Assembly: GCA_964442645.1 (NCBI GenBank) | Contig: CAYTZZ010000010.1 | Coordinates: forward strand, 12,638 to 76,637 | Source: an uncultured Bordetella sp. | Lineage (GTDB): Bacteria > Pseudomonadota > Gammaproteobacteria > Burkholderiales > Burkholderiaceae_C | Length of the DNA stretch: 64,000 nucleotides | Direction of reading: 5' to 3' | Part shown: in pieces, positions 22,602 through 24,268 of the stretch | Layout: each line of letters opens with the position of its first letter | How positions within the stretch are numbered: position 1 is the first letter of the stretch | Notes under the pieces: generated by a model | The model's database searches: none | The model's input: the letters and a program-made list of their open reading frames with translations, nothing else | Told to the model about the DNA's origin: nothing | Position numbers and translations under genes: made by a program

Positions 22602-22626
22602 AAAAAAGCCGCCCGAGGGCGGCTTT
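22602..22626 (-). terminator. Intrinsic terminator after hpf
   Basis: Minus strand reads AAAGCCGCC-CTCG-GGCGGCTTT-TTT, just past the hpf stop. Confidence 0.75.
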
Positions 22627-22641
22627 CACGCGTCGCCTGGC

Positions 22642-23103: not shown

Positions 23104-23133
23104 TTGGCTGCCAGCCTCTGCCAATGCCATAAT
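23104..23133 (+). promoter_or_regulatory. Candidate sigma70 promoter for the corA leader
   Basis: TTGGCT-18 nt-CATAAT with a TG extended -10 element (TGC-CATAAT). Implies a leader of about 140 nt. Confidence 0.4.
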
Positions 23134-23155
23134 GCGTGCTTCACAAACAGCGGAG

Positions 23156-23263
23156 ATGACTCCTTGGAAACCTACCCTAGTTGGTAGCTTTCGGGTCCCC
23201 CTGGCAATTGGCGCCACCCGGATTCGAAAGCTCTTGCCCCTGAACCCTTTCGAACGATGGTGA
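23156..23263 (+). CDS. Putative 35-aa Pro-rich leader peptide (uORF) upstream of corA
   Basis: MTPWKPTLVGSFRVPLAIGATRIRKLLPLNPFERW, five Pro; stop lies 18 nt before the corA ATG. SD is weak because GGAG abuts the ATG. Confidence 0.35.
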   Translation: MTPWKPTLVGSFRVPLAIGATRIRKLLPLNPFERW

Positions 23264-23281
23264 CACCCCACCACAATTGCC

Positions 23282-24268
23282 ATGCTCAATATTTTCACGC
23301 TGGCCAACGGCCGCCTGTTCCAGGAAGAAATTGAATCCCTGGAAGAACTCTCCAAATTCCAGCCGATCTGGGTGGACTTGGAAGCCCCCACCCTGGAAGA
23401 AAAGCGCTGGATCAAGCAGTACTACGGCTTGTCAATTCCCGAAGACGCGATGGACGAGGACATCGAGGAATCGGCGCGTTTCTACGAAGAAGACAACGGC
23501 GAGTTGCACATCCGCAGCGACTTTTTGATTGCCGACGAAGATGCGCCCCGCACCGTGCGTGTGGCTTTCATCTTGAACCAGCACAACCAGGACCTGAAAA
23601 GCCGTGGTGTGCTGTTTTCGATCCACGACGAAGACGTGCCGGTGTTTCGCCTGCTGCGCCTGCGTGCGCGCCGCGCGCCCGGCTTGATTGAGGACGCCAA
23701 GGAAGTCTTGCTCAAGCTGTTCGATGCCGACGCCGAGTATTCGGCCGACACCCTGGAGAACATCTACGACCAGCTGGAGCAAGCCGGCAAGATGGTGCTG
23801 TCCGGCGATGTCACCGACGCCCTGGCCGGGGAAGTGCTGGGCGCCATTGCGCGCCAGGAAGACTTGAATGGCCGCATCCGGCGCAACGTGATGGACACCC
23901 GGCGCGCGGTCAGCTTCATGATGCGCTCGCGCATGCTGAATGCCGAACAATTTGAAGAGGCCCGGCAAATTCTGCGCGACATTGAGTCGCTGGACAGTCA
24001 CACCGCGTTTTTGTTCGACAAGATCAACTTCTTGATGGACGCCACCGTGGGTTTCATCAACATCAACCAGAACAAGATCATCAAGATCTTCTCGGTGGCC
24101 AGCGTGGCCTTGCTGCCCCCGACCTTGATCGCCAGCATCTACGGCATGAACTTTCAGTTCATGCCCGAGCTCAACCAAACCTGGGGCTACCCCATGGCCC
24201 TGGCCCTGATGGTCGCCAGCGCCCTGGTGCCCATGTGGTATTTCCGAAAGCGCGGCTGGCTGAAGTAA
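23282..24268 (+). CDS. corA: Magnesium/cobalt transporter CorA
   Basis: IEESARFYE, LLPPTLIASIYGMNF (GMN selectivity motif), two C-terminal TMs, YFRKRGWL. Confidence 0.96.
   Translation: MLNIFTLANGRLFQEEIESLEELSKFQPIWVDLEAPTLEEKRWIKQYYGLSIPEDAMDEDIEESARFYEEDNGELHIRSDFLIADEDAPRTVRVAFILNQHNQDLKSRGVLFSIHDEDVPVFRLLRLRARRAPGLIEDAKEVLLKLFDADAEYSADTLENIYDQLEQAGKMVLSGDVTDALAGEVLGAIARQEDLNGRIRRNVMDTRRAVSFMMRSRMLNAEQFEEARQILRDIESLDSHTAFLFDKINFLMDATVGFININQNKIIKIFSVASVALLPPTLIASIYGMNFQFMPELNQTWGYPMALALMVASALVPMWYFRKRGWLK

What the first reader, a model, noticed from the sequence alone, without database searches (positions are those of the whole stretch)
23156..23263. Pro-rich uORF in the corA leader: candidate Mg2+-sensing leader peptide
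Seen: a 35-codon ORF (MTPWKPTLVGSFRVPLAIGATRIRKLLPLNPFERW) lies between a sigma70-like promoter (23104-23133) and corA. All five Pro codons are CCT or CCC, and it also uses CTA, CGG and CGA. The corA ATG has no SD and follows a C-rich, G-poor stretch (GACACCCCACCACAATTGCC). Established: in Salmonella, mgtA is controlled by Pro codons in the MgtL leader peptide, with a link to Mg2+-dependent TrmD methylation, and the corA leader has a short ORF that modulates Rho termination. Inference: an analogous attenuator in a betaproteobacterium, which I do not know to be described. Caveat: the uORF SD is poorly spaced.
Basis: partly seen in the sequence, partly recalled or inferred. Interest (0 to 1): 0.65.

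Follow-up and report, generated by a model that had tools for sequence, protein, structure and literature searches.

The report
Seven-codon corL-like leader before corA
The flagged 35-codon frame is not conserved, but inside it lies a 7-codon mini-gene (METYPSW) with competing RNA hairpins. It is kept in front of the magnesium-channel gene corA in about 100 of 134 related genera and resembles the known corL leader of E. coli, so it is most likely a ribosome-operated switch for corA expression.

Summary
That ORF is not conserved, though: its ATG is missing even in the same-genus genome.

What is conserved lies in another frame. In 100 of 134 orthologous corA leaders of this family there is:
- GGAG (23152-55), then 8 nt, then a TTG start (23164) of a 7-codon uORF, METYPSW* (to 23187);
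- consensus M-[D/E]-x-x-[P/H]-[S/P]-[R/W]-stop;
- a start codon that is always TTG, GTG or ATG.

The uORF sits in a hairpin (23167-76/23183-92). The 3' arm of that hairpin can instead pair with 23220-31. This second stem has compensatory changes in 7 of 13 pairs (0 of 500 shuffles). A C-rich, G-poor tract follows (C>G in 98 of 100 leaders).

E. coli corL (ysgD) starts with TTG and encodes MDTPSR..., and 77 of 80 Enterobacterales species share MD[T/A]PS[R/K]. A covariance model built from this family places its best outside hits on enterobacterial corL starts.

I conclude this is a minimal corL-type leader-peptide attenuator. I found no description of one outside Gammaproteobacteria. The scan has noted similar leader-peptide switches before Mg2+ transporter genes on other DNA.

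The parts
23104..23133 (+). Sigma-70-type promoter. The -35-like element is TTGGCT (23104-09). The extended -10 is TGcCATAAT (23125-33). The inferred transcription start is about 23140.
   Evidence: Consensus scan. The TG-n-[C/G]ATAAT box is conserved: it is found in 80 of 100 leaders, 28-30 nt before the uORF start. The transcription start is inferred, not measured.
23152..23155 (+). Shine-Dalgarno GGAG of the uORF, 8 nt before the TTG. It can pair with CTCC 23160-63 in a small 4-bp hairpin.
   Evidence: GGAG lies 5-10 nt upstream of the uORF start in 78 of 100 leaders. The GGAG-N4-CUCC arrangement is visible in many rows of alignments, and in the MFE fold.
23164..23187 (+). Conserved 7-codon uORF: TTG GAA ACC TAC CCT AGT TGG TAG, reading METYPSW*. 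It is corL-like.
   Evidence: Present in 100 of 134 orthologous leaders. Start codons are TTG 68, GTG 17, ATG 15. Stop codons are TAG 51, TGA 47, TAA 2. Length is 7 codons in 82. At the amino-acid level: acidic at position 2 in 81 of 82; Pro uses all four codons; Ser is AGT/TCT/TCG; Arg is CGG/CGC/CGA/AGG. It is unique in the window's own genome. It matches the N-terminus of E. coli CorL, MDTPSR.
23167..23192 (+). Hairpin 1:2 (P1). GAAACCUACC (23167-76) pairs with GGUAGCUUUC (23183-92) around the loop CUAGUU. It encloses codons 2-7 and the stop codon.
   Evidence: MFE fold. 83.7% of cells are paired across 43 leaders, but there is little covariation within the ME class. Between the two peptide classes, GAA/UUUC changes together to GAC/GUCC.
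23187..23231 (+). Alternative stem 2:3. 23187-23198 (GCUUUCGGGUCC) pairs with 23220-23231 (GGAUUCGAAAGC). It excludes hairpin 1:2 because both use GCUUUC.
   Evidence: the count of structure pairs on A1: 91.9% paired, 7 of 13 pairs with changes on both sides, 31 compensatory cells, and 0 of 500 shuffles reach the observed values. It is more stable than the P1 state in 43 of 43 leaders, by a median of 6.7 kcal/mol, once region 3 is transcribed.
23223..23254 (+). Hairpin 3:4 of the window's lineage. UUCGAAAG (23223-30) pairs with CUUUCGAA (23247-54). It competes with stem 2:3 for region 3.
   Evidence: Direct complementarity in the sequence and the MFE fold. A comparable 3:4 pairing is seen by eye in the close relatives L006 and L024. 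It is not general in the family.
23202..23210 (+). Anti-initiation-region segment UGGCAAUUG. It is complementary to 23274-23282 (CAAUUGCCA), the bases just before and entering the corA AUG.
   Evidence: MFE fold. The predicted unpaired probability of the corA initiation region rises from 0.21 to 0.50 when a ribosome blocks uORF codons 1-4, and does not rise when the ribosome sits on codons 5-7. This holds for the window only. The family-wide median changes only from 0.35 to 0.38.
23232..23281 (+). C-rich, G-poor tract (20 C and 8 G in 50 nt). It is a candidate Rho-utilisation (rut) region and includes the SD-less approach to the corA start.
   Evidence: Window counts. In the distal half of the leader the median is C 45% and G 20%, with C>G in 98 of 100 leaders. 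Control DNA upstream shows no such bias. The genome has a rho gene.
23282..24268 (+). corA, encoding a CorA Mg2+/Co2+ channel of 328 aa. This is the regulated gene.
   Evidence: Pfam PF01544, E = 2e-54. Orthologues were found in 139 of 151 family genomes sampled. It is 47% identical to E. coli CorA.
23156..23263 (+). It is not conserved and is judged a chance frame.

Best explanation
The corA leader (about 23140-23281) is a corL-type leader-peptide attenuator.

Anatomy and proposed mechanism:
1. A constitutive extended -10 promoter makes a leader of about 140 nt.
2. The leader's first feature is a well-spaced SD and a weak TTG start for a 7-codon uORF, METYPSW*.
3. The uORF lies inside hairpin 1:2. 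The 3' arm of that hairpin (GCUUUC...) can instead form a longer, covariation-supported stem with region 3 (stem 2:3).
4. Where a ribosome sits on the uORF therefore decides which fold the nascent leader takes.
   - A ribosome held on the first codons covers region 1 and leaves region 2 free to pair with region 3.
   - A ribosome that runs to the stop codon covers region 2 as well. After release, hairpin 1:2 can re-form.
5. The fold sets corA output in two ways. Across the family, it would do so through Rho acting on the C-rich tract. In this window, it would also mask the SD-less corA start, through pairing of 23202-10 with 23274-82 together with hairpin 3:4.
6. By analogy with E. coli and Salmonella corL, efficient uORF translation would turn corA down and impaired translation (for example at low Mg2+) would turn it up.

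Shown here: the conserved uORF, the SD, the start and stop constraints, the peptide motif, the mutually exclusive helices, the C-rich tract and the similarity to corL.

Inferred: that the uORF is translated, the direction of control, Rho involvement and Mg2+ as the signal.
For: Conservation of the uORF:
- Two blocks of the 241-nt query are conserved across genera: the corA start and 23148-23193.
- 100 of 134 orthologous leaders carry the uORF, with an NTG start, an SD at 5-10 nt and an in-frame stop. It is 7 codons long in 82.
- Length variants among the canonical uORFs are 6, 8 and 9 codons.
- The amino-acid pattern M-[DE]-x-x-[PH]-[SP]-[RW] shows synonymous variation.
- Only 2 of 6499 seven-codon ORFs in the own genome fit the pattern, and only this one has an SD.

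Structure:
- Stem 2:3 has compensatory changes in 7 of 13 pairs, 0 of 500 shuffles.
- When region 2 changes UUUC to UUCC, region 3 compensates but the Glu codon in region 1 does not.
- The C-rich tract is present in 98 of 100 leaders, and rho is present.

Link to corL:
- E. coli corL = ysgD has a TTG start and encodes MDTPSRYWL....
- 77 of 80 Enterobacterales species have MD[TA]PS[RK] with a TTG start.
- Model R1, built only from this family, gives its best outside hits on enterobacterial corL SD-to-codon-7 segments (E 0.03-0.05).
- Published corL biology: a UUG start, an ORF that overlaps stem-loop A, two exclusive folds, a pyrimidine-rich rut, Rho, and corL translation inverse to corA expression (PMC5314796 and PMC11552253).

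Window-specific: blocking uORF codons 1-4 raises predicted accessibility of the corA start from 0.21 to 0.50.
Against:
- Equilibrium folding with a ribosome block changes accessibility of the corA start (median 0.35 to 0.38) and of the C-rich tract very little across the family. The output step is therefore not demonstrated.
- Hairpin 1:2 shows almost no covariation within the ME class.
- Some conservation is not explained by coding. Ser is AGT 46 times and never AGC. The third base of codon 6 is U in 77 of 82 whatever the residue. C follows the stop in 86 of 87. RNA-level constraints are therefore superimposed on the coding constraint.
- The corL-like uORF was not found before corA in 16 loci from 7 other families of the same order, nor in 27 class-level loci outside this family. 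Common descent with enterobacterial corL therefore requires many losses. The alternative is convergence.
- The R1 cross-hits are weak (about 11 bits) and the model's E-values are rough.
Confidence: 0.7

Rival explanations
1. The conserved block is a cis-acting structured RNA that senses a ligand, a metal or a protein directly, and the 7-codon ORF is incidental or only auxiliary. Examples would be a Mg2+- or other metal-responsive riboswitch, or a protein-binding hairpin.
For: - Nucleotide-level conservation goes beyond what the peptide needs: AGU is never AGC, codon 6 ends in U in 77 of 82, CGG dominates, and C follows the stop in 86 of 87.
- The stem-switch architecture has real covariation.
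- The enterobacterial corA leader was independently proposed as a 'corA motif' riboswitch candidate (PMC6429828).
Against: - The start position is A, G or T in 100 of 100 uORF-bearing leaders, and a SD sits at ribosomal spacing in 78.
- The stop is kept while switching between TAG and TGA.
- Pro uses all four codons, and Ser and Arg switch codon families.
- Region 1 fails to compensate where that would change Glu.
- The peptide motif is shared with corL, which is experimentally translated.
- No Rfam family matches. This is weak evidence, because Rfam also has nothing for the E. coli leader.
Confidence: 0.1
2. The uORF is translated, but the sensing event is stalling at its stop codon, as with Bordetella cruR or tnaC. 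A ribosome held at CGG/UGG-UAG-C would cover region 2, and the time to its release would set the fold or Rho access.
For: - The uORF is so short that the whole peptide is still inside the ribosome at termination.
- The last residues [P/H]-[S/P]-[R/W] and the stop context UAG-C / UGA-C (C at +4 in 86 of 87) are the most conserved part.
- The stop lies at the junction of the two competing helices.
- There is a betaproteobacterial precedent for stop-codon stalling that shields a rut (cruR, reviewed in PMC12360218).
Against: - 13 of 100 leaders have lost the stop at that place and read on for 12-20 codons while keeping M-[DE]-x-x-P-S-R.
- Enterobacterial CorL continues for about 11 more residues after PSR. 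The conserved core therefore does not need to be at the C-terminus.
- The C at +4 is also a fixed pair of stem 2:3.
Confidence: 0.12
3. The first reader's 35-codon Pro-rich ORF (23156-23263) is the functional leader peptide and senses Mg2+ through its five Pro codons, as MgtL does.
For: The ORF exists, and all five of its Pro codons are CCT or CCC.
Against: - GGAG abuts its ATG with no spacer.
- The ATG is absent in the same-genus genome and in most relatives.
- Only 14 of 100 leaders have any long ORF in another frame starting nearby, and these have unrelated ends.
- Its Pro positions beyond codon 6 fall in unconserved sequence.
Confidence: 0.03

Closest known systems
corL-corA leader of Salmonella enterica and E. 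coli (corL = ysgD, b4799). Sources: Kriner & Groisman 2015; NAR 2016, PMC5314796; Vezina Bedard et al. 2024, PMC11552253.
   Same: - The same regulated gene, corA.
- A constitutive promoter with control placed in the leader.
- A short uORF with an SD and a (mostly) UUG start lying inside the first stem-loop.
- Mutually exclusive helices.
- A pyrimidine/C-rich tract downstream.
- A matching peptide N-terminus: M-D-T-P-S-R in enterics against M-[D/E]-x-x-P-S-R here.
- A model built from this family hits enterobacterial corL starts.
   Different: - The uORF here is 7 codons, against 17-19 in the enterics.
- One extra residue precedes the Pro.
- The stop codon lies inside the hairpin.
- The leader is about 140 nt, against more than 200 nt.
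- The rest of the leader cannot be aligned.
- In this window corA lacks an SD, and its start can be masked by a leader segment.
- Rho dependence, Mg2+ response and the inverse coupling are shown only for the enterics.
mgtL-mgtA leader (Salmonella / E. coli)
   Same: It is a leader peptide before a Mg2+ transporter gene. The peptide has an acidic residue at position 2 and Pro early on (MEPDPTP...). It uses alternative stems and a Rho-dependent output (as summarised in PMC11552253).
   Different: MgtL relies on several Pro and acidic codons, whereas the peptide here has one acidic residue and usually one Pro. The genes differ (a P-type ATPase against the CorA channel). No sequence similarity was tested or claimed.
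'corA motif' riboswitch candidate (Stav et al. 2019, PMC6429828)
   Same: It is a conserved structured element immediately upstream of corA.
   Different: It was reported only from Gammaproteobacteria (325 representatives) and was described as an RNA motif without the uORF reading. It is not in the Rfam copy searched, since the E. coli leader gives no hit. Membership could therefore not be tested with a model.
ermC-type translational attenuation and cruR-bfrG (Bordetella) uORF control
   Same: The position of a ribosome on a very short leader ORF selects between competing helices (ermC) or shields a rut at the stop codon (cruR). The window's predicted opening of the corA start when codons 1-4 are occupied follows the ermC logic.
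   Different: No drug or Cu signal is expected here, there is no sequence relationship, and the output has not been demonstrated.

Membership tests
corL-corA leader-peptide attenuator | A short ORF with its own SD and start codon lies within the corA 5' leader | tested here: met
   The window has GGAG, 8 nt, then TTG 23164 to TAG 23187. The same arrangement is present in 100 of 134 orthologous leaders.
corL-corA leader-peptide attenuator | The conserved CorL N-terminal peptide (MD[T/A]PS[R/K] in Enterobacterales) with a UUG start | tested here: met
   The family consensus is M-[DE]-x-x-[PH]-[SP]-[RW], and TTG is the start in 68 of 100. The enterics have MD[TA]PS[RK] in 77 of 80, all with TTG. 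The match needs a one-residue indel. The window itself has W in place of R at position 7.
corL-corA leader-peptide attenuator | [quoted passage not shown] | tested here: met
   Hairpin 1:2 encloses codons 2 to the stop. Stem 2:3 shares GCUUUC with it and is supported by covariation.
corL-corA leader-peptide attenuator | A rut site and Rho-dependent termination inside the leader | tested here: inconclusive
   A C-rich, G-poor tract is present in 98 of 100 leaders, and rho is present. Composition alone does not show Rho action, and the folding model gives no clear exposure switch.
corL-corA leader-peptide attenuator | uORF translation is inversely coupled to corA expression, and the system responds to intracellular Mg2+ | not testable with these tools
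corL-corA leader-peptide attenuator | Nucleotide-level homology of the leader | tested here: inconclusive
   Model R1 places its best outside hits on enterobacterial corL SD-to-codon-7 segments, but at only about 11 bits (E 0.03-0.05, rough), and the stem part does not align.
Known Rfam RNA families (M-box, mgtA leader and others) | A match to a curated covariance model | tested here: not met
   No hit in the leader, even at E up to 10.
MgtL-type multi-proline sensor | Several Pro (and acidic) codons in the conserved leader peptide | tested here: not met
   The conserved peptide has one acidic residue and one Pro (two in some MD-class members). The five-Pro frame is not conserved.

The most novel reading that the evidence does not exclude
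The heptapeptide core M-[D/E]-x(1-2)-P-S-R is itself the sensor. On this reading it is a minimal nascent peptide that acts inside the ribosome and makes early elongation or termination sensitive to Mg2+ or to ribosome status. It would be shared by Beta- and Gammaproteobacterial corA leaders, either through ancient descent with many losses or through convergence. The 7-codon form would then show that nothing beyond these residues is needed.
Probability: 0.25. Interest if true: 0.8.

Novelty: new member of a known kind. Interest (0 to 1): 0.55.

Why it matters
corA was long regarded as constitutive. Its control by corL and Rho is documented only in Salmonella and E. coli, and the published work stresses the efficiency of corL translation rather than the peptide sequence.

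This analysis finds the same start-codon type and the same P-S-R core, reduced to a 7-codon ORF, in about 100 genera of a large betaproteobacterial family. That has three consequences:
1. It extends this control beyond the enterics.
2. It delimits the part of CorL that evolution keeps.
3. It gives a very small, mutation-friendly system in which to ask whether the peptide, the codons or only ribosome occupancy carry the signal.

It also corrects the annotation target. Anyone testing the 35-codon frame would mutate the wrong start codon.

Tried and rejected
1. Rfam scan of the leader at E up to 10 found nothing. The control scan of the E. coli corA leader was also empty, so the library holds no corA-leader model and the negative result says little.
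2. I used equilibrium folding with a ribosome footprint blocked at each uORF codon to test masking of the corA start and exposure of the C-rich tract. There was a clear effect in the window only (0.21 to 0.50). Family medians barely moved. I therefore do not claim a general translational output.
3. I looked for the uORF before corA in other families of the order (16 loci) and across the class (27 loci outside this family). None was found.
4. In an Enterobacterales-wide sample, corL appeared only where CorA is at least 81% identical to E. coli CorA, plus one distant lineage (L290, MDIPSRPSLL*).
5. I searched the own genome for other copies by BLAST and by peptide pattern. There are none. One look-alike (C54) lies antisense within a long ORF on the other strand.
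6. Kriner & Groisman 2015 (PMC4964609) is not held. I relied on the 2016 and 2024 papers for its content.
The family is referred to only as f1.
9. Using a locus as the centre for relatives failed. I worked around this with a handle.

Full report
**1.

The region reads as described. An ATG at 23156 opens a 35-codon frame that ends at TGA 23261-63. Its five Pro codons are CCT or CCC, and it contains CTA, CGG and CGA. A promoter-like TTGGCT-18-CATAAT with an upstream TG lies at 23104-23133. corA (PF01544) starts at ATG 23282 without an SD, behind a C-rich stretch. On the other strand, upstream, lie hpf, ptsN and hprK.

**2. That ORF is not the conserved unit**

A DNA search of 151 genomes of the family (one per genus) found only two conserved blocks in a 241-nt query. 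One is the first codons of corA. The other is a block of about 45 nt at 23148-23193, which is 85-96% identical across many genera.

I collected the upstream regions of 134 orthologous corA genes.
- It is absent even in the other genome of the same genus (L002).
- Only 14 of 100 leaders have any ORF of 25 codons or more starting nearby in a frame other than the conserved uORF's, and these have unrelated ends.

**3. What is conserved instead**

In another frame, GGAG (23152-55) is followed after 8 nt by TTG (23164) and the frame TTG GAA ACC TAC CCT AGT TGG TAG, which reads METYPSW*. An equivalent ORF is present in 100 of the 134 leaders.

| Feature | Counts |
|---|---|
| Start codon | TTG 68, GTG 17, ATG 15 |
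| Stop codon | TAG 51, TGA 47, TAA 2 |
| Length | exactly 7 codons in 82; others of 6, 8 and 9 codons |
| GGAG 5-10 nt upstream | 78 of 100 |

One further leader has CTG at the homologous start position.

Two peptide classes occur: ME[TSANP][YSC]PS[RWC]* and MD[SQAV][DSP][HP][PS]R*.
- Position 2 is acidic in 81 of 82.
- Pro uses all four codons.
- Ser appears as AGT, TCT and TCG.
- Arg appears as CGG, CGC, CGA and AGG.

Thirteen leaders have lost the stop and read on for 12-20 codons but keep M-[DE]-x-x-P-S-R (for example MESSPSRVLSAPD*). In nine genera the whole leader is gone and the conserved -10 box sits within 45 nt of the corA ATG.

In the window's own genome, only 2 of 6499 seven-codon ORFs fit the peptide pattern, and only this one has an SD. 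BLAST and broader pattern scans find no second copy. This is far beyond chance and has the marks of a translated frame.

**4. RNA architecture**

The uORF lies in hairpin 1:2 (23167-76 with 23183-92), which the MFE fold predicts. The 3' arm, GCUUUC, plus the next 6-7 nt (23187-98) is also complementary to 23220-31.

On an alignment of 43 ME-class leaders (A1), stem 2:3 scores as follows:
- 91.9% of cells are paired;
- 7 of 13 pairs have compensatory changes (31 cells);
- 0 of 500 shuffles reach the observed values;
- sliding the partner by one column drops pairing to 56-58%.

Hairpin 1:2 is 83.7% paired but hardly varies within this class. Two observations help here.
- Where region 2 changes UUUC to UUCC, region 3 compensates (GAAA to GGAA), but region 1 (the Glu codon GAA) does not. 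This suggests the peptide constrains region 1 more than the pairing does.
- Between the two classes, GAA/UUUC/GAAA switches as a set to GAC/GUCC/GACGG. This supports both pairings.

Once region 3 is made, the 2:3 state is more stable than the 1:2 state in 43 of 43 leaders, by a median of 6.7 kcal/mol. Hairpin 1:2 is therefore a co-transcriptional intermediate or an alternative stabilised by downstream pairings.

The segment after GCUUUC (ACUCCC or ACUCCAG in most genera) is an anti-SD. By eye, it is complementary to the uORF SD, to region 3 and to the corA SD.

In the window's lineage the corA SD has been lost. Instead, 23202-10 pairs with 23274-82 across the corA start, and region 3 can form hairpin 3:4 (23223-30 with 23247-54).

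**5. Output**

The distal half of the leader is C-rich and G-poor in 98 of 100 leaders (median C 45%, G 20%). Control DNA upstream shows no such bias. The window has 20 C and 8 G in 23232-81, and a rho gene is present. This is the composition expected of a rut site.

I also modelled a ribosome footprint at each uORF codon.
- In the window, occupancy of codons 1-4 raises the unpaired probability of the corA start region from 0.21 to 0.50. Occupancy of codons 5-7 leaves it at 0.21.
- Across the family the medians hardly move (0.35 to 0.38), and the C-rich tract behaves likewise.

The output step is therefore inferred, not shown. Rho attenuation best fits the family-wide features. Masking of the corA start is an addition in the window's lineage.

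**6. Comparison with what is known**

In Salmonella and E. coli the corA leader carries corL, a short ORF that overlaps stem-loop A.
- The leader switches between two exclusive folds that expose or hide a pyrimidine-rich rut site.
- Rho terminates in the leader.
- corL translation is inversely related to corA expression.
- In E. coli the start is UUG and the response is to intracellular Mg2+ (PMC5314796 and PMC11552253; review PMC12360218).

E. coli K-12 annotates corL as ysgD. It has a TTG start and encodes MDTPSRYWLTILSSRINS*. Among 80 Enterobacterales species, 77 have a TTG-start ORF beginning MD[T/A]PS[R/K][Y/C]W, with synonymous variation and a variable C-terminal half. A distant lineage of that order has a 10-codon version, MDIPSRPSLL*.

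The betaproteobacterial uORF thus shares the following with corL:
- the gene context;
- the start-codon type;
- the acidic second residue;
- the P-S-R core, including the AGU Ser codon.

It differs by one extra residue and by ending right after the core.

A covariance model built only from this family (R1) was run over 252 kb of corA loci from other families, orders and the enterics. Five of its seven best hits fall on the SD-to-codon-7 segment of enterobacterial corL (E 0.03-0.05, about 11 bits). The alignments need a 3-nt gap, and the stem part is unmatched.

**7. Distribution and novelty**

The uORF was not found before corA in 16 loci of seven other families of the order, nor in 27 class-level loci outside this family. 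Within Enterobacterales it is also patchy. Either an old element has been lost many times, or the same peptide core arose twice.

The 'corA motif' of Stav et al. 2019 was reported only from Gammaproteobacteria. I found no paper describing a corA leader ORF in Betaproteobacteria, although absence from the held library is not proof.

Earlier notes of this scan describe leader-peptide switches before corA or mgtE in Bacteroidota, Clostridia, Thermus and Chloroflexota, and a corL-type leader before mgtE in Stenotrophomonas. I did not check those.

**8. Rivals**

- *A pure RNA sensor.* Nucleotide constraints beyond coding favour it: AGT never AGC, U at the end of codon 6 in 77 of 82, and C after the stop in 86 of 87. 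The start, SD, stop and amino-acid signatures and the corL match disfavour it.
- *A stop-codon-stalling sensor* (cruR- or tnaC-like). It fits the conserved C-terminal residues and the UAG-C / UGA-C context. It is weakened by the extended variants and by the enterobacterial CorL, which reads on past PSR.

**9. Verdict**

The finding points at a real and strongly conserved regulatory leader, but names the wrong ORF. The best reading is a minimal corL-type leader-peptide attenuator of corA (confidence about 0.7 for the kind, lower for direction and output). It is a new member of a known kind, of moderate interest because it delimits the conserved core of CorL and offers a 7-codon test system.

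Noticed in passing
L037, L052, L057, L061, L073, L131 and others (upstream of corA): In 9 of the 34 genera without the uORF, the conserved TG-n-[C/G]ATAAT box lies within 45 nt of the corA ATG. The whole leader appears to have been deleted while the promoter was kept.
   Followed up: partly
window 23179-23187 and the homologous positions in 82 leaders: Some constraints are not explained by the peptide. Ser is AGT 46 times and never AGC, in a genome of 60% GC. The third base of codon 6 is U in 77 of 82 whatever the amino acid. The base after the stop is C in 86 of 87. Enterobacterial corL also uses AGT.
   Followed up: partly
window 23262-23284: corA of the window has no SD (…CACCACAATTGCC ATG), whereas most relatives have GGGAG or GGAG 6-9 nt before the ATG. 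The same-genus genome has AAGGA.
   Followed up: partly
L290 (G695:C4), 164 nt before corA: A distant lineage of the Enterobacterales order sample (CorA 67% identical to E. coli) has a 10-codon TTG-start corL, MDIPSRPSLL*. This is a second naturally short version.
   Followed up: partly
L007, L015, L018, L068, L075, L081 and others: A subgroup has lost the stop after codon 7 and reads through region 2 for 12-20 codons, with a recurring continuation (MESSPSR-VLSAPD*, -LLSVP..., -RLSAS...).
   Followed up: no
window 22604-22627, minus strand: A G+C-rich hairpin with a U-run (AAAGCCGCCCUCGGGCGGCUUUU) lies just after hpf. It looks like an intrinsic terminator between hpf and ptsN. It produced the weak Rfam 'P9' and 'isrK' terminator-like hits.
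   Followed up: no
G119, G075, G076, G085, G150 (family genomes): Some genomes of the family carry a second CorA-like gene, 47-49% identical, lying in an open frame of about 440-480 aa. I did not check whether it has a leader ORF.
   Followed up: no
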